Assembly: GCA_000004985.1 (NCBI GenBank) | Contig: GG738931.1 | Strand: one strand, 5' to 3' | Length of the DNA: 64,000 nucleotides | DNA from: Naegleria gruberi | Lineage: Eukaryota | Shown: piece by piece, positions 1-53,738 of the stretch | Layout of the letters: each line of letters starts with the position of its first letter | How positions within the stretch are numbered: position 1 is the first letter of the stretch | Program-made: the position numbers and the translations under genes | The notes under the pieces: generated by a model | Databases searched by the model: none | The model's input: only the letters and a program-made list of their open reading frames with translations | What the model was told of the DNA's origin: nothing

Positions 1-388
1 CCAAACCCAAACCCAAACCCAAACCCAAACCCAAACCCAAACCCAAACCCAAACCCAAACCCAAACCCAAACCCAAACCCAAACCCAAACCCAAACCCAA
101 ACCCAAACCCAAACCCAAACCCAAACCCAAACCCAAACCCAAACCCAAACCCAAACCCAAACCCAAACCCAAACCCAAACCCAAACCCAAACCCAAACCC
201 AAACCCAAACCCAAACCCAAACCCAAACCCAAACCCAAACCCAAACCCAAACCCAAACCCAAACCCAAACCCAAACCCAAACCCAAACCCAAACCCAAAC
301 CCAAACCCAAACCCAAACCCAAACCCAAACCCAAACCCAAACCCAAACCCAAACCCAAACCCAAACCCAAACCCAAACCCAAACCCAA
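1..388. repeat. Terminal tandem array of about 64 CCCAAA units (TTTGGG on the G-strand). This is a candidate telomere at the contig/chromosome end.
   Basis: Perfect hexamer periodicity from base 1 to ~388. The C-rich strand reads 5'->3' on the + strand, as expected at a left chromosome end. Confidence 0.8.
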
Positions 389-961
389 CCTCCACCATTA
401 TAATAACTTCCAAATAAATATTATTCCAATTCCGAAACATCTTCTAAATAATTCCAATCAATATATATTTTTAAAATTATTATGAAACAACTCCTGATGA
501 TATGATGATATGATACGATGATACGATGATATGATGAGATGATTGAATGAGGAAGAGAAAGAGAAGACATCACATTTTTTTTGTATGTTACTTTTCCGTC
601 TCACAATTATCTATTCTATTTTTAAATTTTTCGGTTTGAAAATTATCATTGAAGATGAAATTTTGCAAATATTTAGAAACCTTCCTTCTTGATAATTACT
701 TAGTCGATCAAGGAGGAACAACGTTCTTTATCCATCATTTGGTCTGTTCCCCGATTTTAAATTATAAAATTTTCATTTTTACTCGCTTTTCTAACTTTCA
801 ATATTTGTCTTTCAAACCTGTGCCTTATTGTTCGATGAATATTTGATTTAAAGATGTCATCCTTTCAGGGTAGCTCCTCCTAAATATATAGAACAAGTTT
901 GTAAGATATCATAATGAATGGTTAAGTAGTTTTTCATTGAATAATCAAAGAGTATGTATTT

Positions 962-976
962 CCAAACCCAAACCTT
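962..976. repeat. Short interstitial telomere-like CCAAACCCAAACC tract.
   Basis: About 2.5 telomere units sit immediately 5' of the dispersed repeat. Confidence 0.5.
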
Positions 977-980
977 GAAC

Positions 981-1090
981 AATATTAAATTTCACTAAAA
1001 TATTAATATTATCAGATTTCCACAAATATTACTATTATAATGATGATAAATAACAATGATGATGGTTGGTAGTTGTTCCGATGTGATGGA
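981..1090 (+). repeat. Dispersed ~110-bp repeat, copy A. Copy B is at 54744-54856.
   Basis: About 95% identity over ~110 bp with 54744-54856 (aatattaaatttcactaaaatatta...gatgatggttggtagttgtt). Both copies lie 5' of +-strand F-box/LRR genes. Confidence 0.6.
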
Positions 1091-1108
1091 ACACGGTAGT
1101 ATCTGGAA

Positions 1109-1564
1109 TTGAAAAAAATGACTCAAGTTAAAGGTTTGTGTGATGATCAAAGTTTGCTAATGATTGTAATAGAAATATTTTCTGATGATGTAATTTATGA
1201 AATTATTTCCTATTTATGTGATGATTGGAAATTCGTATTATTAAATTGCGTAATGGTAACAAAACAATGGTTGAACGTCATCCGAGATCGATCCGAGCTT
1301 TCAATGATGGCGAATAATCATTTGGTCAATCAAGTAAATAATGAATTTTTGGATTGTTTTGTATCAATAACATTTGCACGCAATATTTTAAATGACAATT
1401 GGTTTAACATGTTAGGACGTATGACTCAATTGACCACTTTGGAAATTGGAAATAATCTAATTGATGACAATATGGTTAAATTAATTAGTGAAATGAAACA
1501 GTTGACAGGCCTTGATTTGGAAATCAATCAAATCTTCAATGAAGGAGCCAAATCCATCAGTGAA
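1109..1564 (+). CDS. F-box-like/LRR protein of the RNI-like family B. It is a 3'-truncated fragment that stops at the gap and the interstitial telomere array.
   Basis: ATG at 1109. F-box-like motif IFSDDVIYEIISYL...VTKQWLNVI, then LRR units (LTTLEIGNNLIDDNMVKLISEMKQLTGLDL). It is a paralog of the 28351-29335 gene. The tracked ORF continues into N's and CCCAAA, which is an artifact. Confidence 0.6.
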
Positions 1565-1614
1565 NNNNNNNNNNNNNNNNNNNNNNNNNNNNNNNNNNNN
1601 NNNNNNNNNNNNNN
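1565..1614. other. Assembly gap (50 N).
   Basis: Run of n. Confidence 0.95.
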
Positions 1615-1865
1615 AACCCAACCCAAACCCAAACCCAAACCCAAACCCAACCCAAACCCAAACCCAAACCCAAACCCAAACCCAAACCCAAACCCAAACC
1701 CAAACCCAAACCCAAACCCAAACCCAAACCCAAACCCAAACCCAAACCCAAACCCAAACCCAAACCCAAACCCAAACCCAAACCCAAACCCAAACCCAAA
1801 CCCAAACCCAAACCCAAACCCAAACCCAAACCCAAACCCAAACCCAAACCCAAACCCAAACCCAA
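1615..1865. repeat. Interstitial (CCCAAA)n telomere-repeat array, about 42 units.
   Basis: Same hexamer as 1-388 with a few variant units (AACCCA). Confidence 0.8.
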
Positions 1866-1921
1866 GCCTAAAAACCCAAGCCTAAAAACCCAAGCCTAAA
1901 AACCCAAGCCTAAAAATCTAA
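1866..1921. repeat. Four copies of a 14-bp CCCAAGCCTAAAAA telomere-associated satellite.
   Basis: Direct tandem repeats, with degenerate copies continuing to ~1990. Similar motifs recur at 5281-5310. Confidence 0.6.
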
Positions 1922-17154: not shown

Positions 17155-17249
17155 TTTTTTTTCTAATCTCTGATTTACAATTGTGAATTTCCCAGTTTAA
17201 ATTGGAAATTGTAATCATTTACAATTTTGTAAAATTAAAATAAAAAAAA

Positions 17250-18806
17250 ATGACTGTAATACAAAATAACAACAAGAAGAGAAAGCACGAAGAATCATCA
17301 CAATTTCCTTCCGATGATGAATTTTGTGAGGATGGAAAAATAATGGACGAATCGGATTTATTTGAAGAATTGATGGAAGTGAATTGTAAATTAATTTCAT
17401 TGGCGAAAAAGGCAAAAGTTGTTGATTGTCGTTATTTTATGTACAATAGTGGAATAATTGATGAATTTATTGGCAATTTTTATGAATTTTTAAAACAAGC
17501 TGAGTTGCAACAGAAGAAGGCTGTAAAATCCTCTTCGGAACAGTTTAATTCGGATGTTTTATCAGAGATTTATCAATTCTTGGATACATCAACGGTCATA
17601 CATGGATGTGGATTGGTTTCTAAATTGTGGAATCAATCATTAAAGGGATTGAAATTGAAAGTCAGAGCTCAAAACATTGACATTTTATTGAATAGTTCAA
17701 TAATTACAAACATCACTCAATTGGAATTGGTTTCTACCACTGATGAAACATTTAAATTACTTTCAAATTGTAGAAATTTGGATAAACTGAACTCATTAGA
17801 TTTGTCAAGTAATAAGTTAGAAAAGGCATCCATTGATCATTTAATTAAATGTCATATGCCAAATTTGACAGAATTGAATTTGGCTTATATCAAACAATTT
17901 ACAGAAACAGCAGCAATAGAATTGTTAAACAGCCGTTTTATGAAAAGCATTAAGAAATTGGATTTATGTGAATCTTTAGAGAATTGTTCAAAGAATTTAT
18001 TTGCTTCCATTTCACAATCAAAAATTTTGAATCAAATCACCCACTTGAAAATTAATAGGTCCACTTATAATAGATACATAACGGACAAAGAGCATGGAAT
18101 TGATATTTTCTTGAATGATAAATTCAGTTTAGAACATTTAGAAACAGTACATTACCAATTGGATGTTCTTCCTAATTTATTAACAAATGGAAATTATAAG
18201 AATTTGACCTCACTTGATATTTGCAGTTGTAAAATTAGAAATCAAGTATTTGCAGATTTGATTGTTTCACCAAATTTACCCAATCTCACAAGTCTAAATG
18301 CTACGTATTTGCGTGAAGTGGATGACGACAAATCAGTTGCAGAATTTCCTCCAAATAGTGAAAGTTCACTTACTGATTTGGATTTGGGTAACTTCAGAGT
18401 AGCATCATTTCCTAAACTTGTTGATCATTGTCCAAAACTAAAGAAACTCATAGTTTATCCAGCAAATACCGATGAGGAATCAAAGAAAATACTTCTCAAT
18501 ATGATGAAATCTCCAAATTTATCTAATGTAGAATATTTGGACATATTATGTTGGAACGAAACATCAGAAATTATATTTACCAATCCAATCTTGTCTAATT
18601 TGAAGGAATTACATTTATCACCACTTCATTATGATGATACCGTAGACGTAAAATTAGTATCAAATTGTACAAATTTGATAAATTTAACAACGTTAATACC
18701 TTATACTGACATGGTAACTAAAGAGTGCTTACAGGAATTCAAGAAGAATCCAACCTTTGCAAAATTGAATATACGAGATTTTATGGGACGACCATTGATG
18801 ATTTGA
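17250..18806 (+). CDS. F-box-like/LRR protein, family A paralog 1 (518 aa).
   Basis: True ATG at 17250. F-box-like motif LNSDVLSEIYQFLDTSTVIHGCGLVSKLWNQS, then LRRs (NLTELNL, LTSLDICSCK, LSNLKELHL). About 45-50% identical to the 21596 ORF. Confidence 0.75.
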   Translation: MTVIQNNNKKRKHEESSQFPSDDEFCEDGKIMDESDLFEELMEVNCKLISLAKKAKVVDCRYFMYNSGIIDEFIGNFYEFLKQAELQQKKAVKSSSEQFNSDVLSEIYQFLDTSTVIHGCGLVSKLWNQSLKGLKLKVRAQNIDILLNSSIITNITQLELVSTTDETFKLLSNCRNLDKLNSLDLSSNKLEKASIDHLIKCHMPNLTELNLAYIKQFTETAAIELLNSRFMKSIKKLDLCESLENCSKNLFASISQSKILNQITHLKINRSTYNRYITDKEHGIDIFLNDKFSLEHLETVHYQLDVLPNLLTNGNYKNLTSLDICSCKIRNQVFADLIVSPNLPNLTSLNATYLREVDDDKSVAEFPPNSESSLTDLDLGNFRVASFPKLVDHCPKLKKLIVYPANTDEESKKILLNMMKSPNLSNVEYLDILCWNETSEIIFTNPILSNLKELHLSPLHYDDTVDVKLVSNCTNLINLTTLIPYTDMVTKECLQEFKKNPTFAKLNIRDFMGRPLMI

Positions 18807-19656
18807 TTTTTTGAGGAACATTACTTGATATTGAAAAATAATTCATATAAGCATTTTGACTTAGTATTGAACGATAAAGCGAATTTGAAGCATCCTTCAT
18901 ACGGTGAAATACTGAGTTTCTTTTGTTTTGGACAATAATCCAATAGTGAAGGAAAATATACAACTCTACAATATCTAAAGCATGATGAATTTGTTGGAAT
19001 CGGATGAAAGCTTAGATATTGAACTAGTTCAATTTAACATCATTTATTACTGAATTGGTGGTCAGCAAAGAATGCTCACACAATCCGACCTTTTCCGTTT
19101 TGAAAAAAATAGATCATTTTAGGATTCCAGAATTTATTGTGTAAACGTGTGCTAGAATTCTAATGATCTTACATTAAGCACTTGTTGGATAGTTCTTCTT
19201 TCCTATCTGTAATCCAGCAATGTAAAGCTAAAATAAATCAACAAAGTGGAATGTTTTGTAGCAAGAATAGATTTTCCTCCTTCTTTCATTAAGCACTAGT
19301 GTCACTCTATTAATTAATTGTGAAAACAACCAACCTTCTCCATTAACTGTTTAATTGAATGAAGTCAATAATTTAATCCAAAATTGATTTAAATAAACGT
19401 TTCCAATCTAATTATTCAGTTTCTATGGATTGCAGGTAGGAATGGAAAATAATCACAAATTAATGTGTATTTGAAAGAACTTTAAGTTTTGACATTTAGA
19501 GCTGGAGAGAATTTTGTGCATGGTAGAAGTTGGTGATTTTCTCGATAAATACTTATCATATTTTAAGAATTTCAACTTTCTGTGATAGAACAGGACCACT
19601 ACATGATACCCATAAAAGTTGGAGGTTCGAAAAATAGTATTGAGGAAGAAAAAGGT

Positions 19657-21509: not shown

Positions 21510-21595
21510 GTCCACAATCGATCATGACCATTGTGTAAATTTTTGTAAATAAAACAATAAAACAATTTTGTAATATTTTAGAAATAAGTAAAAAA

Positions 21596-23119
21596 ATGAC
21601 GGTAATTCAAAACAAGAAGAGGAAACATGAAGAATCATCACATCATGATGATGATGGAAAAATGTTTGATAATGCTGATAATATTGAATCGGTTTTATTT
21701 GAAGAAATGACGACAGTTAATTCCCAATTGCTTTCATTGGCAAACAAGATGAAACTGGTTGATAATATTTATTTTACAAAGAATACCGAAATGATTGATG
21801 AATTTATTGGAAATATTAACGAATTTTTGAAACAATTAGATATGCGTAGGAAGAAGGCTTTTTCTGAAAAATTGAATTCCGATATTTTGTCTTATATTTA
21901 TCAATTCTTGGATACAAATATTCTTAAAGAATGTTGTGGTTTAGTTTCTAAATTATGGAGACAATCAATAGGATTGAAAGTGAAAGTGAGAGATATTGAT
22001 ATTGATAAATTTGTAAATTGTTCACTAATTGAAAATGTAACGTACCTACAATTGGTTGATACTACTGAAGAACCAGAAACATTTAAATGGCTTGTAAATT
22101 GTAGAAATTTGGATAACTTGAAATCATTAGATTTATCTGAAATCGAATTGGAAAATGTAGAGTATTTAATGAAATGTCACATGCCTAATTTGACAGAATT
22201 GAATTTGGCGAAAAGGGTATCTGATGAGGAAGTGGTAATAGAATTGCTTACCAGTAGTTTCATGACCAGTGTTAAGAAATTGGATTTATCATATTCATTC
22301 TACGAATTTCCAATTGATATATATGAATCAATTTCAGAATCTAACTATTTGAGTCAAATCACTCATTTGAACCTTGATAATATGGAATATTTAGAATTTA
22401 CTGGGCTGGATTTACTGCTGAAAGATAAAGTGAATTTGGAACACCTACAAATACGCAAGCATTGTTTGGTTAGTTATCCAAATTTATTTACGAATGGAAA
22501 TTATATGAATCTCACATATCTTGATATTTCCAGTTGTCAATTAAGTAGAAATCAAGAATTTATAGATTTAATGTTTTCTCCAAACTTGCCAAATCTTACA
22601 ACACTCAAGGGCAAGGCGTTATGGGCCGAAGAAGATGGCAAAGAAAAAGACATAGTTGTTGAAATTCCTCCAAACAGTCAAAGTTCTCTCACTGATTTAG
22701 ATATAAGATATTGTAGGGTTGGATTTTATCCATCACTCTTTAATCACTGTCCAAAACTAAAGAAATTATCAGTTTATTCTTTACATGATGAGGAATCAAA
22801 GAAATTACATCTCAATATGATGAAATCTCCAAACTTGACAAATTTAGAATATTTGAAAATGGATAGTTGGAATGAAGCATCAGAAATTATCTTTACCAAT
22901 CCAATCTATTCGAATTTAAAGGAATTACATTTAGTAAGACCATTCAGGAATGGTGAAAACTTAAATGTAGAACTAGTATCAAACTGTAACAATTTGGTCA
23001 ATTTAACAACATTAACTGTATCTGTTGAAACACAAGACTTGCAAGAATTCCAGAAAAATCCCACATTTTCCAAACTGAAAAGAATATCCAATATTGTAAT
23101 ACCACAAAAAAGGCTATGA
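21596..23119 (+). CDS. F-box-like/LRR protein, family A paralog 2 (507 aa).
   Basis: ATG at 21596. The N-terminus MTVIQNKKRKHEESS is almost identical to paralog 1. F-box-like motif LNSDILSYIYQFLDTNILKECCGLVSKLWRQS, then LRRs. Confidence 0.75.
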   Translation: MTVIQNKKRKHEESSHHDDDGKMFDNADNIESVLFEEMTTVNSQLLSLANKMKLVDNIYFTKNTEMIDEFIGNINEFLKQLDMRRKKAFSEKLNSDILSYIYQFLDTNILKECCGLVSKLWRQSIGLKVKVRDIDIDKFVNCSLIENVTYLQLVDTTEEPETFKWLVNCRNLDNLKSLDLSEIELENVEYLMKCHMPNLTELNLAKRVSDEEVVIELLTSSFMTSVKKLDLSYSFYEFPIDIYESISESNYLSQITHLNLDNMEYLEFTGLDLLLKDKVNLEHLQIRKHCLVSYPNLFTNGNYMNLTYLDISSCQLSRNQEFIDLMFSPNLPNLTTLKGKALWAEEDGKEKDIVVEIPPNSQSSLTDLDIRYCRVGFYPSLFNHCPKLKKLSVYSLHDEESKKLHLNMMKSPNLTNLEYLKMDSWNEASEIIFTNPIYSNLKELHLVRPFRNGENLNVELVSNCNNLVNLTTLTVSVETQDLQEFQKNPTFSKLKRISNIVIPQKRL

Positions 23120-27653: not shown

Positions 27654-28350
27654 TTTTTTTTTCTGATATTAAGGCGCGAAATTCTAGAAATTTGAACAAT
27701 TAAGGAAAATCTGGCGGTGAATAGGAATTTTTCGTTGATGATTTTGCATTCTGAATTTTGATAAAGTTTAAAATTTTATTTAAAATCTAATTATTATTAA
27801 ATATTCCAATTATTCCCAACATATTTTTAATTTTTAAAAATTATTGAAAAAAATACGTGAAATGCTCAACCACCAATTACAAAGCAATGATGGAAGAATT
27901 TAAAAAAACAGCCACAATATCTGTGGTCAGGTTCTCGGCGCATTTTTGTGATGCTCCCAAAAAACATGGAATGCTCCCAAAGCTGATTTACCTGTAGGGG
28001 TAATTGGATGCGCCAATAACACCGATTTATTACTTAAGCAAATTCACTCAACTTCAACAAAGCATATCTCAATAACAACACTGGATGTTAGAGAAACATA
28101 CCGTATGGTCATTATTAATTATGTTAACAATCATAATATCAAGTTTGTTACTGATTTGGCTCTTTACTTATCGAGAAAAGTGATTTCAAAATTTTCATAT
28201 GTGGTAGTAAGACGAGCATGTTTTCTTGGTTAATACAAATAACTGATATTCAATAAAACAGAATCTTGTAGAAAACATCAATTAGAACAAGAATAATAAA
28301 TAATATTTTTATTTCACTAAGTATTAAATTTAATATTTCCTTTTTTGTAA

Positions 28351-29335
28351 GGAGCATTGCAAAAATACGGGAAAAACATTTCCACAGATATCCGAAGTAA
28401 ATTATTTACTCTTCTCCGATGATGTTCTCTATGAAATTTTTTCTTTTCATGATGATTTTAAATTTATGGTCATGAGTTGTGCATTAGTTTCAAAACAATG
28501 GTTTAATGTCATTGTTAATCGGTGCAAACTTACATTGAAATGCGAAAATAATAGGATGCAAAAGAAAGGTCAATTTTTACAAAATGTAACAAATCTTCTC
28601 TTTAAAAGAGAAATTGGTGCATTTGATTATAAATTATTAAATTTGATGAAAGGAATAACAACTCTGACAATTAATTACAATAGTATAGGAGTGGAAGGAG
28701 CCATGCATATTAGCAAAATGGAGCAATTGACAAATCTTGATATTTGTAATAGTGTTCTTTATGAAGAAGGAGCAAAATATATTAGTCAACTGGAACAATT
28801 GAAATGTCTAGATATTGGTTCAAACAGTATAGGCAAAAACGGAGCTAAATATATTAGTGGAATGAAACAGTTGACAAGATTAGATATTTTTAATAATACT
28901 ATTTGTGAGGAGGGAGCCAAGTCAATCAGTGAAATGAAGCAATTGACTCATCTCAAAATTACCTTCAATGACATTGGAACAGAAGGAGCCAAATACATTA
29001 GTCAACTGCGAAAATTAACACATCTAGACATCAGTTCCAATGATATTGGTGCTAAGGGTTCCAAATACATTAGTGAAATGAATCAATTGACCATTCTTAA
29101 TATTTATAATAATGATATTGGAAATGAAGGAGTGAAACACATTAGTGAAATGAATCAATTAACAAGGTTGGATATTGGTGATAATGAAATTAGTGCTGAG
29201 GGAGTTAAATATATTAGTGGCATGAAACAATTGACAAACCTTGATATTTCATGGAATAATATTGGAGATGAGGGAGCTCAATTTCTTAGTCAAATGAAAC
29301 AATTAATTTATCTTGAATTTATTACTTTGGATTAA
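28351..29335 (+). CDS. F-box-like/LRR protein of the RNI-like family B, paralog 2. The 5' end is incomplete.
   Basis: The open frame from 28334 encodes ...LFSDDVLYEIFSFHDDFKFMVMSCALVSKQWFNVI (F-box-like), then at least 9 units of a 28-aa LRR (LTxLDIxxNxIGxEGAKYISxMKQ). There is no in-frame ATG before the F-box. A strong acceptor (ttccttttttgtaag|G) at 28350 suggests an unseen 5' exon. Confidence 0.6.
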
Positions 29336-30840: not shown

Positions 30841-32323
30841 TTAATAAGATCTTCCAAAACTTTTGCCACACTTTTTAAGGTTCTTTGGTTTGGGCACTTT
30901 CAAATTCTTCACCTTTGAAAAGGTTGGATTTCTCTTGATTTCTTCTTCCAATTCAGCTAAATACTCTGTTCTCCAAAGGTCCAGGGTTTTTAAATTGACT
31001 AGAGTGGTGCATTTCGACACGAGGGAAATATCTAAAGTTTGGTTAGAGGACTCGTGTAGTTCCAAACGTAATTCCTGTAAATTGGAATAAATTGGACTGG
31101 TAAAGATAATCTCCACTGTTTCTCCACAACAGGTAATATCCAAATATTCCAAATTTGATAAGCTAGGAGACTTCATCATGTTGAGAAGCTCTTTCAGTGA
31201 AATGTATTCATCCTCACCACCAGGAAGAACTTTTAGTTTCTTTAGCTTTGGACAATGATCCAAGAGTGATGGAAATAGCACAAGTTCACAATATCTGATA
31301 TCCAAATAAGTTACCGAACTTTGACTATTTGGAGGAAATGTAGCAACAGTTTCATCGTGATATAAATTGTTAGCTTTGAGTGTTGTAAGTTTTGGTAAAT
31401 TGGGAGAAACAATCAAATTTGCAAAATCTTGATTTTTCATACTAGAATTGTTAACATCCAGAAATGTTAGATTCTTAAGGTTTCCGTTTGTTAAAAAATT
31501 CGTTTGTTTGAATCGATATCCTTCCATTTCTAAATATTCCAAATTCACCTTATCTTCAATAAATAAATCGATTCCAATAATATCTTTTTCCTCATCATCA
31601 TTTCCAAAATTATTAATTTTCAAATGAGTGAGTTGTTTCATATATTTAGAATGTGAAATTGATTCAATAAAGCTCTTTGAACAATCTCTTATAGAATGGC
31701 TTAAATCTAATTTCTTAATGCTTGCCATGAAAGGACTGTTGAATAATTCCTTTGCTATCGTATTTTCAGTAAATTCTTATCGTATCCACCAAATTCAATT
31801 CTGTCAAATTTGGTGTATGACATTTCGTTAAATGCTCAACAGCAACATTAGATAAGGAAAGTAAATCTAATGATTTCATCTTGTCCAAACTTCTACAATT
31901 AGCAAGTGATTTAAATGCATCACCAGAAATAATCAAGGTCAATTTGGCGACATTCTTAACTAACGAACCATTCAGAAAATTGTCCAAGTTTTCACCTCTC
32001 ACTCCCACTTGCAATCCATCCACTGATTGTCTCCACAATTTTGAAACCAAACAACAACACTCCTGGAGTGTAGTATTATCCAAGAATTGATAAATATGAG
32101 ACAAAACATCGGAATTCAATCGATCAGAAGAAGCCTTCTTCCGATTAAAATCCAATTGTTTTAAAAATTCGTGAATATTACCAATAAATTCATCAATCAT
32201 TCCATTGTTATACATAAAGTAACAACTATCCGCTAACTTCACCTTATTTACCAAGGAAATTAATTGCGAATTCACTGTCGTCATTTCATTATATAAAACC
32301 GTTTCAATATTTTCATCATACAT
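30841..32323 (-). pseudogene. F-box-like/LRR family A paralog 3, frameshifted and 5'-decayed.
   Basis: Two ORFs (31766-32323 and 30841-31728) align end to end with paralogs 1 and 2. There is a frame slip near 31745 (NLTELNLVDTIR / EFTENTIAKELFNSPFMASIKKLD). Homology continues upstream of the first ATG (DAFHHHDDDVK ~ ESSHHDDDGK) with no start codon. Confidence 0.55.
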
Positions 32324-32457
32324 TTTTACATCATCATCATGATGATGAAAAGCATCCCCGTATTTTAATTTATTTTTACAATAAAAATATTAAGGGATTC
32401 AATATTTAATATTTTTAAGAAAGATACGTATTCTCTACTAATCAGGTAATTTGCAAA

Positions 32458-33435
32458 TTATTGATTAACCAATCTTGCATAAATGTGAACTTCTCCACTG
32501 GTTTGTCCGCCACTTGGCAAGGAGTCACTGTCGTGAGCTTGTCTCACTCCAAAGCTTCTGGCAGGACAGAATGGGTTAAAAACTTTGTCTGTAATGCCAA
32601 TTCCTGCGATTTCTGCACTTCCTGGAAAGTTTAGAGTATCAACTCCGTAATCGGAGCTATTCCATTGATAGGAAAAGAAACCTCCGATTCTTGCTTTGAA
32701 AGTTTCGGGATATTTGTTGGAATATGCATTGATTTTCCAATAAGGAGACTTTGGAACCATAAAATTGGCCATTTCAAAGCCACTTGCCAAAGATAGAGGA
32801 TCTTGACCTTTCCTTAAATGGGCAATTTCTGTCTTGTTGGATTGGAAACGTTCTAGCATGGTTTTTGCTTCTTTGAGAACTAGATGAGCTTGTCCATTTG
32901 GAGTTACCAATAGTAATTCATTGACTTGCATCAAATTGAATTCTGGATATTTAGCCGAAAGTCCTTCGAACAGATCATTTCTTTTATCACTGTTCAAAGT
33001 TGATCCAGTTGTCCAATGAATACTATCATACCCCATATCAGTACCTGCACACTTCATAATCAAAATCCAATCAGAGTTCAAATACGGTTTCGTCAAGTTT
33101 CTAACAACATATTCCATTGCATTCTGAATCGATTCGTTTTGCTTGAAAAATGTAATTTTACATTCCTGATCTTCCTTCTTACACAAATTAACCATCTCAT
33201 GATTCTGTCTCATAACAACCAACTTTCCAGCACTTCCAACCGAAATAATTTCTCTCGCCTCTTCCAAAGAATTCTTGAAAATTGACCCTGTAATACTTGC
33301 AGAGTGGAAGAAAGCAGGCGAATCTTGAGCGCTGAGAGCAAGTTTTGCCTCCGTATCTGAAACAATGATCAATGAAAGAACCATATGGGAATTCTCACCA
33401 TGGATTGGAATTTTACAAAACTCTTGTGGTAACAT
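32458..33435 (-). CDS. Hypothetical protein (325 aa), unknown family.
   Basis: Uninterrupted ORF from ATG at 33435 to 32458 (minus strand). Complex, non-repetitive composition. Confidence 0.45.
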   Translation of the reverse strand: MLPQEFCKIPIHGENSHMVLSLIIVSDTEAKLALSAQDSPAFFHSASITGSIFKNSLEEAREIISVGSAGKLVVMRQNHEMVNLCKKEDQECKITFFKQNESIQNAMEYVVRNLTKPYLNSDWILIMKCAGTDMGYDSIHWTTGSTLNSDKRNDLFEGLSAKYPEFNLMQVNELLLVTPNGQAHLVLKEAKTMLERFQSNKTEIAHLRKGQDPLSLASGFEMANFMVPKSPYWKINAYSNKYPETFKARIGGFFSYQWNSSDYGVDTLNFPGSAEIAGIGITDKVFNPFCPARSFGVRQAHDSDSLPSGGQTSGEVHIYARLVNQ

Positions 33436-50985: not shown

Positions 50986-52110
50986 TTACATTACAGAACA
51001 TTTTTTCGATTGTTTCATCAACTTTCTCTGCTTTTTACAAGTTTCAATGAATGCAGAATCGTGTTGAATGACTTCCTTCAGGAGTTTCAGATTATCACCT
51101 GATCCATATCTCTTTAGTCTTACACATTCTTCATATACTCGAATAATGTTTTCTCCCGTCTTGGCACTTGTTTCAATGATGAAAGTATTGGTCAATTGAG
51201 ATTGTTTAATGATGGTAGCAATTTGGTTAGTAAATTTCTCAATGGTGATTGGTCGATCTGTTTCATTCAATAAATCGACCTTATTTAAGGCAAATACTAC
51301 TGGAAAGCTATTTTCCTCAAAGTCCTTAACTCTTACTAATTGTTCTACAAGTGGTTCGGCTTCTTCCACTGAATTACTATCTACCAAATCACAAACAAGA
51401 ACGAAACACTCTCCATATCTCATAAAATGATCTCTCGCGGACTTGATAAATTTAATTAGTTTAGAATGGCATTATTCTAAAGAACTTACACTGTATTCAT
51501 GTTCAGCAGAGTCCAAAACTTCAAATAATGTAGGAAAACCATCAACCAACAATTGTTTTCTATAAACATCCTCTATTGTTGGATCATATTGTTCAATAAA
51601 GAAATCTTGTATATATTTCACTGTCATTGCAGACTTTCCTATTTCAAAATAATTAACCTATTAACAGAAAATTATTAAATTCTTACCTACTCCTCCCTTT
51701 CCAATCATCACCACTTTAGTTTTCTCAATTCCATCCAATTTTTTAGGTGTTCCCCAAATGTGAAACTTAATAAATGCAGCCATCAGCACTTTCCTCTTCA
51801 ATTCTCTCTTTAGAATCATTTCCTCCTTCAGTAAACTAAACTCCTTCTCCAAAGATGGATTAATTCCAAACCAAATCTCCCAAACCTTCCACCAAAATCT
51901 ATCAAAATATCGTTCCATCTCTGGCATACTAGCAATCTTCCTATTCAATGATTGAAAATTAGCCATATATCGTACATAGGATCGTATTTCACTGCTCCCA
52001 CTCGAAAAATTCTTTTTCAGCAATTCGGAATCTCCCACTCCGAACGATAAAATGTGTTGATAAATTTCATAGGGAAGTGATGAGAATTGTGTGATGTGTT
52101 TTGGAGCCAT
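50986..52110 (-). CDS. Ras-like small GTPase with a CAAX tail and an N-terminal extension. At least 3 exons.
   Basis: Exon A is ...EKTKVVMIGKGGVG|GTAAGA, ending at 51687. Exon B is 51638-51490 (KSAMTVKYIQDFFIEQYDPTIEDVYRKQLLVDGFPTLFEVLDSAEHEYS|GTAAGT). Exon C is 51441-50986 (SARDHFMRYGECF...FALNKVDL...ETSAK...KKCSVM*). The start is ambiguous: ATG at 52110 gives a 140-aa extension, ATG at 51783 gives a canonical length. Confidence 0.6.
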
Positions 52111-52271
52111 TTTTTTCTGATGTTCAAAACCAAGTTCACTGTTGTTTTGCCGATTACAACAATTACAACGGAACGACTCTTCTCCTGGTGGGAAAGGAGC
52201 CAAACATAATATTGGCTTGCAGAGATGAATCATCGAAATATTACTCAACCACATGCCAATCCGAAGCATCA

Positions 52272-53738
52272 TTATTTTCTATTGATAATTGAAAGATCTG
52301 TAAATGGATGTGGTGACTTGACAATATAATTAAACTTGTTAGGAAATAATGTAAATTGGTTCCTTCTATAATTGACTTTAACAATGGTACCAACAGCAAT
52401 AGTTGCACGTCCATCCCTAATTATAATTCTTCCAAGTTTGTTGCAATCATTGTAGCTATCCACAAATAATGGAACAGTAGGTGCCAATTCAACAAGTGCT
52501 ACATCTCCTATTTCAAGACAGGATGGATTTTCCTCAATTATTATTGAGCTATCTGTAGGATTCAATATCCCAATCAATTTCTCAAATTTAGTATTGGCAA
52601 AAGCTAGCCCACAATGTACTATTGGAGCATAACCAGCCCTTATTGAGGGTTTAGGAGTATTAATTATTGAAATTTGTGCTATAAACCTGGATGCTGCCTT
52701 ACATGGTGAAAAATATGGATCGCTTATTATGTAACCAGTTTTAGTTGGTGGCAGATTATCGAATTCAATACCAACCAGAGAGTTGGAAAATGCTCTCTCC
52801 TTGTTGGTATGTGAAATTTGAATATTCTTCACTCTCACATTAATCAATTCTCCACTATGCACTCGTGGAATTTGAACTGTCATTCCAACCTTAACCATTC
52901 CACTAATAATATATCCAGCAAGAATGCCATTCGGCAACTTGGGTTTAAAAATTGCAATTCTCAATGGCTCTCGCAAACATTCCTCAACAGTCCTTTGAAA
53001 GTTGGTTTCCATATTATTCAACGTTTCAGTGAGTGTTTTTCCACAATACCATTTCATATTTTCTGACCTCTCAAAAACATTATCTCCACACTCTCCACAA
53101 ATTGGAATGAATGGAATTTCTTGCTTGATTCCAACTGTCTTGATTAATTTACCAATACTTGTTTTAATTTCCAAAAATCTCTTCTCTGAATATTTCACAC
53201 AATCCATCTTATTGACACACACTATGAACCTCTCAATTCCAGCAACTTTTGAATAAATTAGTTGCTGCTTATAAGAAAATGATAGATTCTCTCGGTGGAA
53301 TCCAGCTTCAAACTCTCCATCAGATGCACTAACCACCATCAAACAAACATTTCCCATCGAAATCCCTTGAATTGTCTTCTTTATAAAATCACCATGTCCA
53401 GGTGTGTCAATAATCCGAAATTGACAAGCAGACAATTCAATTACATGTTTAGCATTCACATCAGTACTTATTTCTCTCTCTGCCTGAGTTGGAGAATCCA
53501 GCATGAGTGAAGAGATATGAAAATGATTTCTATTTCCCATCCATGATTGAATTCCAAATCGTTGAAAAATCGCTTGTTGTCCTTGCTGATAAAGCTCACA
53601 TTGACGCTTTAATTGTTCATAAACTTGTGGTTTAATTTTTCTTACCAATTGACCACCAAGTGTTGATTTTCCGCAGTCTACAAATCCAATCAAGACTAGA
53701 TTAAATTCTTCGGGTTTGATTTTTCTATGATCAGACAT
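52272..53738 (-). CDS. Divergent EF1A/EFL-like translational GTPase (488 aa).
   Basis: ATG at 53738. G1 NLVLIGFVDCGKST, G3 DTPGHGDF, G4 NKMD, then beta-barrel domains II and III (LPNGILAGYIISGMVKVGMTV...). There is no N-terminal extension, so it is EF1A-like rather than eRF3/HBS1-like. Confidence 0.65.
   Translation of the reverse strand: MSDHRKIKPEEFNLVLIGFVDCGKSTLGGQLVRKIKPQVYEQLKRQCELYQQGQQAIFQRFGIQSWMGNRNHFHISSLMLDSPTQAEREISTDVNAKHVIELSACQFRIIDTPGHGDFIKKTIQGISMGNVCLMVVSASDGEFEAGFHRENLSFSYKQQLIYSKVAGIERFIVCVNKMDCVKYSEKRFLEIKTSIGKLIKTVGIKQEIPFIPICGECGDNVFERSENMKWYCGKTLTETLNNMETNFQRTVEECLREPLRIAIFKPKLPNGILAGYIISGMVKVGMTVQIPRVHSGELINVRVKNIQISHTNKERAFSNSLVGIEFDNLPPTKTGYIISDPYFSPCKAASRFIAQISIINTPKPSIRAGYAPIVHCGLAFANTKFEKLIGILNPTDSSIIIEENPSCLEIGDVALVELAPTVPLFVDSYNDCNKLGRIIIRDGRATIAVGTIVKVNYRRNQFTLFPNKFNYIVKSPHPFTDLSIINRK

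What the first reader, a model, noticed from the sequence alone, without database searches (positions are those of the whole stretch)
30841..32400. Third family A paralog is a decaying copy
The ORFs at 31766-32323 and 30841-31728 align end to end with paralogs 1 and 2. They are separated by a 1-nt frame slip near 31745, and an in-frame TAA appears in the second frame. Protein homology (DAFHHHDDDVK…) also continues upstream of the first ATG, with no start codon and an upstream stop. The original N-terminus has been lost. Together with the other broken genes in this window, this points to birth-and-death turnover in a subtelomere.
Basis: seen in the sequence. Interest (0 to 1): 0.5.

Follow-up and report, generated by a model that had tools for sequence, protein, structure and literature searches.

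The report
Frameshifted F-box/LRR gene copy in Naegleria
The third copy of an F-box/leucine-rich-repeat gene near a Naegleria gruberi chromosome end is split by one extra base and has lost its original start, but its sequence is otherwise fully conserved, so it is a very recently broken gene or a sequencing error rather than a long-decaying relic, which makes it an ordinary finding.

Summary
The window is the telomere-proximal 64 kb of a 138-kb Naegleria gruberi NEG-M scaffold. ORFs 31766-32323 and 30841-31728 (minus strand) are collinear with two intact paralogs (17250-18806 and 21596-23119), with tblastn E-values from 1e-58 to 1e-78. They are separated by one extra nucleotide, located at 31776-31780 and not near 31745. 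Frame 0 ends at TGA 31768-31766 and frame 1 opens after TAA 31779-31777. Homology continues upstream of the ATG with no start codon.

The family is F-box plus about 12 LRRs, the architecture of SCF substrate receptors. "Decaying" is only partly supported. The copy differs at 4 of 77 positions where the other nine family members are identical, all conservative changes and no more than in intact paralogs. Against a roughly 2%-diverged strain (ENA contig L003), 10 of 13 differences are synonymous (pN/pS 0.08; P about 4e-5 under neutrality). The gene was therefore under purifying selection until very recently. The frameshift is either a young strain-specific lesion or an assembly error, and reads are needed to tell. 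Loss of the N-terminus is real, because the other strain keeps a KKRKHE-coding stretch that NEG-M has deleted. GenBank already annotates the halves as two genes, NAEGRDRAFT_75908 and 75907. The paralogs are old, so recent gene birth is not shown.

The parts
31766..32323 (-). Copy 3, N-terminal ORF (185 aa): helical N-region, F-box, first ~3-4 LRRs. This is the public model NAEGRDRAFT_75908 / XP_002669142.1.
   Evidence: Pfam F-box 21.5 bits against cutoff 20.5; exact match to the GenBank protein.
30841..31728 (-). Copy 3, C-terminal ORF (295 aa): the remaining LRRs. The public model NAEGRDRAFT_75907 / XP_002669141.1 starts at the second Met and covers 30841-31641 (266 aa). Met 31728 is a nearly invariant internal family residue (F-M in FMSSVKKL), not a new start codon.
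   Evidence: (LRR_4 31.4 bits against cutoff 27).
31776..31780 (-). Frameshift site: one extra nucleotide within ATAAG. Removing one A, or the G, restores ...LNLVDTI(E/K)FTENTIAKELFNS..., which matches the family pattern L-x-L-x5-F-T-E.
31766..31768 (-). TGA that ends the N-terminal frame, 3 codons after the insertion.
31777..31779 (-).
32324..32392 (-). In-frame remnant of the ancestral N-terminus (...GDAFHHHDDDVK) with no ATG, closed by TAA 32392-32390. About 61 nt present in the related strain are missing between 32362 and 32360.
17250..18806 (+). Intact paralog 1 (518 aa), NAEGRDRAFT_75899.
21596..23119 (+). Intact paralog 2 (507 aa), NAEGRDRAFT_75901. The AlphaFold2 model shows a continuous LRR solenoid over residues 127-499.
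18902..19003 (-). Short, truly decayed relic of a fourth family member (26-38 aa around the ...FPSL..HCPKLKKL... repeat), tail to tail with paralog 1.
1..383 (.). Terminal (CCCAAA)n array, inferred to be the telomere. A second array lies at about 1615-1860 after a 50-N gap.

Best explanation
Copy 3 is a member of a Naegleria-specific family of proteins of about 500 aa. The family has a helical N-region, an F-box and about 12 leucine-rich repeats, which is the architecture of SCF ubiquitin-ligase substrate receptors: the F-box docks on Skp1 and the LRR solenoid binds the substrate. Copy 3 lost the family's N-terminal MxxxNKKRKHE segment and now starts at an internal Met (32323). It stayed under strong purifying selection through most or all of the time since N. 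gruberi NEG-M diverged from a roughly 2%-different strain. In NEG-M a single extra base at 31776-31780 breaks the frame in the middle of the LRR solenoid. This leaves an F-box stub of 185 aa and a promoterless LRR ORF. I take this to be a real but evolutionarily very young null lesion, that is, a nascent or possibly still polymorphic pseudogene, and not a copy that has been decaying for long.

Shown: the lesion as assembled, the conservation, the synonymous-biased strain differences, and the domain architecture.

Inferred: that the extra base is real, that the protein works in an SCF complex, and that the split halves are non-functional.
For: - Identity of the locus: ORF 52272-53738 is 100% identical to an N. 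gruberi protein on a 138,333-bp contig. Paralogs 1 and 2 and the N-ORF are exact GenBank proteins, and the C-ORF from its second Met is NAEGRDRAFT_75907.
- Architecture: Pfam F-box matches 8 of 10 family members and LRR_4 matches 9 of 10. The AF2 model of paralog 2 has alternating strand and helix from 127 to 499. Foldseek finds FBXL17-SKP1, D3-ASK1, COI1, TIR1, Dia2 and FBXL3 among generic LRR hits.
- Position of the break: the break point maps between strand E201-203 and helix H211-218 of paralog 2, inside the solenoid.
- Conservation: 4 of 77 invariant positions are changed, all conservative (F>Y, L>M, L>I, L>V). Mismatch to the consensus positions (where at least 7 of the 9 other members agree) is 12.3%, against 6-17.5% in intact members.
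- Strain comparison with L003: 13 differences in 726 coding nt. All 10 transitions are synonymous and the 3 transversions are non-synonymous. pN/pS is 0.076, and P is 2e-5 to 4e-5 under neutrality, or 0.0025 even with an inflated synonymous fraction.
- N-terminus: L003 retains the in-frame KKRKHE-coding stretch but has no ATG, and NEG-M has deleted about 61 nt of it.
Against: - No reads or independent NEG-M sequence could be examined, so a consensus indel error, or a heterozygous site collapsed in the assembly, is not excluded.
- The related-strain contig L003 does not cover 31593-31985, so the frameshift site was never seen in a second genome.
- A pN/pS of 0.08 leaves little room for any neutral period. 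My rough estimate from 3 non-synonymous changes, not a tool output, is under about 20% of the inter-strain path. This fits 'no lesion at all' at least as well as 'young lesion'.
- L003 is itself a mosaic (deletion plus inversion). If that structure is real, the other strain's copy is also broken, which would be an unusual coincidence under strong selection.
Confidence: 0.45

Rival explanations
1. The frameshift is an assembly or base-calling artefact, or is present on only one haplotype. The real gene would be an intact, functional F-box/LRR ORF of 493 aa starting at Met 32323.
For: There is a single lesion and no second one anywhere in 1.48 kb. Constraint is as strong as in a working gene: pN/pS 0.076 against the related strain, lower than the flanking genes at 4:4 and 27:20 synonymous to non-synonymous. 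Conserved residues are intact. The scaffold is a draft with N gaps.
Against: The site is not a long homopolymer (GATACGATAAGAATTT). It lies about 24 kb from the nearest gap. The locus shows other real erosion at its 5' end, corroborated by a second strain. Both flanking related-strain contigs end at the borders of copy 3, and the one contig inside it is rearranged. This hints that the locus is unstable.
Confidence: 0.35
2. The two ORFs are two working genes, as in the public annotation (NAEGRDRAFT_75908 and 75907): an F-box-only protein and an LRR-only protein.
For: GenBank and UniProt carry them as separate proteins. Both halves show synonymous-biased divergence, 5:1 and 5:2.
Against: The cut falls inside a continuous LRR solenoid, between a strand and its helix. 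The C-ORF has only 37 nt between the upstream stop and its first ATG, and that Met is a conserved internal family residue. All nine other family members are single ORFs. The related-strain contig does not preserve either ORF boundary.
Confidence: 0.07
3. This is the first reader's reading: a long-standing pseudogene decaying neutrally, as part of subtelomeric birth-and-death turnover.
For: The frame is disrupted and the ancestral start is lost. A real relic of the family lies nearby at 18902-19003. The location is close to the telomere.
Against: There is no excess of changes at conserved positions. dN/dS against the paralogs is in the range of the intact pair. pN/pS against the related strain is 0.076, with P about 4e-5 under neutrality. 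There is only one frame-breaking lesion in 1.48 kb. The paralogs are old, so no recent birth is shown.
Confidence: 0.05
4. The break is bridged during expression, by a short intron or by programmed +1 ribosomal frameshifting, to give a full-length protein.
For: The strong purifying selection on both halves despite the break would be explained. A +1 shift at UAC-UGA-A would re-enter the C-terminal frame (read directly from the sequence).
Against: Homology to the paralogs is continuous to within 1-2 codons of the break, so an intron of realistic length would delete conserved residues. The only GT...AG pair spanning the break, GTGGATACGATAAG, is 14 nt and leaves the stop of the first frame in place. 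A shift at the TGA would replace the conserved F-T-E with I-R-I-Y. No other family member has a frame change.
Confidence: 0.03

Closest known systems
FBXL-type F-box proteins (Skp2, FBXL3, FBXL17, plant TIR1/COI1/D3, yeast Dia2), the substrate receptors of SCF ubiquitin ligases
   Same: An N-terminal F-box of about 40 aa is followed by a long LRR solenoid. Pfam F-box and LRR_4 both match, and Foldseek hits SKP1-bound FBXL17, D3, COI1, TIR1 and Dia2.
   Different: Sequence identity to solved structures is only 12-19%, and generic LRR proteins such as internalins, TLRs and NLRPs score equally well. The family has about 90 extra N-terminal residues, with a KKRKHE motif and long helices that are modelled at low confidence. 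Skp1 binding was not tested.
N. gruberi NAEGRDRAFT_53287, the closest annotated relative outside the window, and five further NEG-M members (47527, 52719, 54100, 53913, 69941)
   Same: The length (483-549 aa) and domain order are the same, with 43-55% identity over 95% or more of the restored copy 3.
   Different: All of them are single uninterrupted ORFs. All except 54100 begin with MxxxNKKRKHE, which copy 3 lacks.
Young or polymorphic pseudogenes in subtelomeric gene families (background knowledge from yeasts, Plasmodium and trypanosomes, not tested here)
   Same: A multi-copy family lies within about 30 kb of a telomere, with one frame-broken member and one short relic.
   Different: There is no sign of recent duplication, gene conversion or accelerated evolution. 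The copies are old (dS 0.75 or more) and the broken one is highly constrained.

Membership tests
F-box/LRR (FBXL-type) SCF substrate receptor | Recognisable F-box motif of about 40-50 aa | tested here: met
   Pfam PF00646 on the copy 3 N-ORF, residues 68-105, scores 21.5 bits against a cutoff of 20.5. Eight of 10 family members match at E <= 0.01, best 5.6e-7. On the restored full-length sequence the score is 18.5 bits, which is marginal.
F-box/LRR (FBXL-type) SCF substrate receptor | Leucine-rich-repeat solenoid C-terminal to the F-box | tested here: met
   LRR_4 scores 31.4 bits against a cutoff of 27 on the C-ORF, and 9 of 10 members match. The AF2 model of paralog 2 has regular strand and helix repeats from 127 to 499, with pLDDT mostly 80-95. 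Foldseek hits F-box-LRR structures.
F-box/LRR (FBXL-type) SCF substrate receptor | Binds Skp1 and recruits substrates to Cul1-Rbx1 | not testable with these tools
   This needs pull-down or co-expression experiments. It is inferred only from the domain architecture.
Pseudogene (decaying copy) | Reading frame disrupted relative to functional homologs | tested here: met
   There is a +1 insertion at 31776-31780, a TGA at 31768-31766, and the ancestral start is lost. This holds for the assembly as given.
Pseudogene (decaying copy) | Relaxed selection: dN/dS approaching 1 and loss of conserved residues | tested here: not met
   pN/pS against the related strain is 0.076, and all 10 transitions are synonymous. 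Only 4 of 77 invariant positions are changed, all conservatively. dN/dS against the paralogs is 0.34-0.48, compared with 0.21-0.43 for the intact pair.
Pseudogene (decaying copy) | Lesion confirmed in independent reads or another genome, and loss of expression | not testable with these tools
   No reads or RNA-seq were available. The only related-strain contig inside the locus (L003) skips 31593-31985. Scans of the JGI metagenomes found nothing useful.
Programmed ribosomal frameshift or intron-bridged gene | Frame change or intron conserved in homologs, with a canonical signal at the site | tested here: not met
   All nine homologs are single-frame and gapless at this position. No GT-AG interval of plausible length exists without removing conserved codons.

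The most novel reading that the evidence does not exclude
Copy 3 is still functional in NEG-M despite the frame break. It would either be decoded across the break by +1 recoding near UAC-UGA-A, or work as a two-polypeptide F-box plus LRR pair. That would explain why both halves show strong purifying selection.
Probability: 0.05. Interest if true: 0.45.

Novelty: new member of a known kind. Interest (0 to 1): 0.15.

Why it matters
The finding matters little on its own. It is one frame-broken member of a lineage-specific F-box/LRR family in a genome that has been public since 2010, and its two halves are already deposited as separate hypothetical proteins.

- **Annotation:** NAEGRDRAFT_75908 and 75907 should be merged, or flagged as a frameshifted gene or candidate pseudogene.
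- **Method:** a frame break plus a lost start does not by itself show decay. Here the substitution pattern indicates that the gene was maintained until very recently.
- **If the lesion is real and polymorphic:** it would be an example of presence/absence-type variation of SCF receptors near Naegleria chromosome ends.

Tried and rejected
- **Intron across the break:** rejected. Homology is continuous on both sides, and the only spanning GT..AG is 14 nt.
- **Programmed +1 frameshift at the TGA:** rejected as unlikely. It would destroy the conserved F-T-E, and no homolog shares a shift.
- **Finding the orthologous locus elsewhere:**
  - Exact-product look-ups for the C-ORF, paralog 1, paralog 2, ORF 32458-33435, P0001 and P0006 found no DNA.
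  - The ENA contigs for the two flanking genes (L002, L005) stop at 32406 and 30821, just outside copy 3.
  - L003 lies inside the locus but skips the frameshift site.
  - Two JGI metagenome pattern scans gave nothing, then one chance 21-mer hit.
- **Homolog searches:** the searches with paralog 2 and with the restored copy 3 did not return the window's own proteins or their ENA relatives. Exact look-up showed those clusters are represented by short ENA fragments. 'No closer homolog found' is therefore weak evidence.
- **Literature searches:** nothing was found on PRJEB11402, on Naegleria telomeres or subtelomeres, or on this family.
- **'Other broken genes' in the window:** an all-against-all ORF comparison found no other split family, only family A and one EGF-repeat pair.

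Full report
**Where the window comes from**

The window starts with (CCCAAA)n at 1-383. After a 50-N gap there is a second such array at about 1615-1860. GC content is about 33%. ORF 52272-53738 is 100% identical to a Naegleria gruberi predicted protein on a 138,333-bp contig. Exact look-ups identify paralog 1 (17250-18806) as NAEGRDRAFT_75899 and paralog 2 (21596-23119) as NAEGRDRAFT_75901. The N-terminal ORF of the finding (31766-32323) is NAEGRDRAFT_75908. The C-terminal ORF, read from its second Met (30841-31641), is NAEGRDRAFT_75907. So this is the telomere-proximal part of a scaffold of the public NEG-M draft genome. The two halves of the "third paralog" are deposited there as two unrelated-looking hypothetical proteins. 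That the CCCAAA array is the telomere is an inference from its terminal position. I found no paper stating the Naegleria telomere repeat.

**Checking the observation**

Both ORFs are present as stated. tblastn of each against the window finds the two intact paralogs, collinear and end to end. The N-half is 60% and 55% identical (E 3e-67 and 2e-58). The C-half is 53% and 47% identical (E 7e-78 and 6e-70).

In the DNA alignment, copy 3 has 28 nt where paralog 1 has 27 nt between TTG and GAA. Frame 0 runs into TGA at 31768-31766. The second frame is closed upstream by TAA at 31779-31777. Removing one base restores ...LNLVDTI(E/K)FTENTIAKELFNSPFMASIKKL....

Upstream of ATG 32323 the frame still reads GDAFHHHDDDVK, compared with HHDDDGK in paralog 2. 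That stretch has no ATG and is closed by TAA at 32392-32390.

**What the gene family is**

The family has nine full-length members besides copy 3. These are paralogs 1 and 2 in the window, six other NEG-M proteins, and one protein from a Logan assembly. They are 483-549 aa long. Most begin with MxxxNKKRKHE.

Pfam F-box matches 8 of 10 members (best E 5.6e-7) and LRR_4 matches 9 of 10. The copy 3 N-ORF alone passes the F-box gathering score, 21.5 bits against 20.5. An AlphaFold2 model of paralog 2 has pTM 0.71 and pLDDT of 80-95 over residues 160-500. It shows three short helices at 95-123, where the F-box lies, and a regular strand and helix solenoid from 127 to 499. Foldseek against the PDB returns generic LRR proteins. 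Among the top hits are SKP1-bound FBXL17, D3-ASK1, COI1, TIR1, Dia2 and FBXL3. The architecture is that of an SCF substrate receptor, but Skp1 binding is inferred and was not tested.

The frameshift maps between strand E201-203 and helix H211-218 of paralog 2, inside the solenoid. The first Met of the C-ORF is a nearly invariant internal family residue, not a new start codon. It lies 37 nt after the upstream stop. If the extra base is real, the product is an F-box stub with 3-4 LRRs, and the substrate-binding part is probably not made.

**Is the copy decaying?**

Three tests say it is not, at least not for long.

- **Conserved positions.** At positions where the nine other members are identical, copy 3 differs at 4 of 77. 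All four changes are conservative (F>Y, L>M, L>I, L>V). Intact members differ at 0-15 such positions. At consensus positions (where at least 7 of the 9 other members agree), copy 3 mismatches at 12.3%, against 6.2-17.5% in intact members.
- **dN/dS against the paralogs.** The values are 0.34-0.48 for pairs involving copy 3 and 0.21-0.43 for the intact pair. dS is about 0.75-1.7, which is near saturation and so of low power.
- **Comparison with a related strain.** The protein cluster of the N-ORF contains a 124-aa ENA protein. Its 845-bp contig (L003, sample ERZ929261 / ERR1078381) is 98% identical to copy 3. Neighbouring contigs from the same sample, L002 and L005, match the flanking genes at 97.7-98.9%. 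The sample therefore holds a closely related strain.

  Over the 726 coding nt that L003 covers there are 13 differences, 10 synonymous and 3 non-synonymous. All 10 transitions are synonymous. Only 36% of possible transitions are synonymous, so P is 4e-5 under neutrality. pN/pS is 0.076. A binomial test with the synonymous-site fraction of 0.20 gives P of 2e-5, and 0.0025 even with that fraction set to 0.35.

  The flanking genes show 4:4 and 27:20 synonymous to non-synonymous differences. Both halves of copy 3 show the synonymous bias, 5:1 and 5:2. My rough estimate from these counts, not a tool output, is that any neutral phase can have lasted at most about a fifth of the inter-strain path.

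**The N-terminus**

L003 carries about 61 nt that NEG-M lacks between 32362 and 32360. In L003 they encode NKKRKHEAQLEPS in frame with the rest of the gene. This is the family's N-terminal motif. There is no in-frame ATG in L003 either. The position of the ancestral ATG after the A-run reads ATT and is out of frame, and an in-frame TAA lies at L003 8-10.

So the ancestral start was lost in the other strain too, and NEG-M later deleted part of the remnant. This is real erosion, corroborated by an independent sequence. The rest of the gene nevertheless stayed under selection, presumably using Met 32323. That Met aligns with an internal Met of paralog 2. NAEGRDRAFT_54100 is annotated from the same point.

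**Limits of the related-strain evidence**

L003 is a mosaic. Positions 76-450 match 32360-31986 and positions 451-511 match 31592-31532. Positions 512-845 match 31005-31338 in inverted orientation. It skips the frameshift site. I cannot tell whether the two junctions are a real rearrangement or a chimera. No description of the project was found. The flanking contigs stop at 32406 and 30821, right at the borders of copy 3. No other orthologous DNA could be obtained.

**Explanations**

- **Young lesion (0.45).** I favour a real but very young lesion in a gene that was functional until recently.
- **Artefact (0.35).** The close rival is a consensus indel error or a collapsed heterozygous site. 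The extreme constraint and the single lesion fit this equally well. Only reads can decide between the two.
- **Two working genes (0.07).** This is unlikely given the cut inside the solenoid and the conserved internal Met.
- **Long-standing neutral decay (0.05).** This is contradicted by the substitution data.
- **Intron or recoding (0.03).** This is contradicted by the continuous homology and by the lack of any such feature in the homologs.

**Birth-and-death turnover**

A short, truly decayed relic of a fourth copy lies at 18902-19003, tail to tail with paralog 1. So there has been some gene death at this locus. The three longer copies are old, however. They share 53-57% identity with each other and with NAEGRDRAFT_53287 on another scaffold, and dS is 0.75 or more, against 0.07 between the strains. 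Recent gene birth is not shown. An all-against-all comparison of ORFs found no other split family in the window.

**Verdict**

This is an ordinary finding. It is a frameshifted member of a lineage-specific F-box/LRR family, and it is already in GenBank as two mis-split models. The value added here is a corrected break point, the annotation fix, and the demonstration that "decaying" overstates the case.

Noticed in passing
window 27917-28391 (element about 27921-28387), compared with L005 1-140: An insertion of about 467 nt with 55-nt imperfect terminal inverted repeats (CTGTGG.../...CCACAG) and a duplicated ATAT sits inside the coding sequence of an F-box/RNI-type LRR gene (ATG 27887, stop 29335). 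It is absent from the related-strain contig L005, where the ORF is uninterrupted (MMEEFKKTATISEVNY...). If spliced at its own GT (27923) and AG (28387), it would leave +6 nt in frame (TIS-IS-EV). That makes it a MITE-like element that could act as an 'introner'-type new intron, polymorphic between strains. The predicted spliced protein is not in the protein collection, no other copy is in the window, and no paper on introners in Naegleria was found.
   Followed up: partly
L003 1-845 (ENA ERZ929261, k127_277547): The related-strain contig of copy 3 is a three-piece mosaic: 32360-31986, then 31592-31532, then 31005-31338 inverted. It is either a real deletion plus inversion that destroys the gene in that strain, or a chimeric assembly.
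   Followed up: partly
window 18902-19003 (-): A relic of 26-38 aa of a fourth family-A gene (the ...FPSLLDYCPKQKKL... repeat) lies tail to tail just after paralog 1. This is what a truly decayed copy looks like at this locus.
   Followed up: yes
window 1-1920: There are two telomere-type (CCCAAA)n arrays, at 1-383 and at about 1615-1860. Between them lie about 1.2 kb of unique sequence and a 50-N gap, including a 5' fragment of an F-box/RNI-LRR gene (from 1118) cut by the gap. After the second array come variant units CCCAAGCCTAAAAA (1861-1915). This is probably a scaffolding join of two chromosome-end contigs, or an interstitial telomere array.
   Followed up: no
window 17225-17235, 21566-21576, and also 7336, 33410, 48739, 50759: The motif TTTTGTAAWAT occurs 6 times against 0.77 expected, and no shuffle reached 6. 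It lies about 15-20 nt upstream of the ATGs of paralogs 1 and 2. Copy 3 keeps a degenerate version (TTATTGTAAAAAT, about 32385-32373). It may be a core-promoter or initiator element.
   Followed up: partly
window 51661-52272 and 52272-53738 (-): The eEF1A-like GTPase ORF (488 aa, annotated as such) ends exactly where a 203-aa ORF with no Pfam match begins, with a 1-nt overlap. It was not examined whether this is another frame break, an intron, or two genes.
   Followed up: no
tool behaviour: The homolog searches did not return the window's own GenBank proteins. Their 90% clusters are represented by short ENA fragments, one of which (49 aa) looks unrelated. 'No close homolog' from that tool should therefore be read with caution for this genome.
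   Followed up: partly
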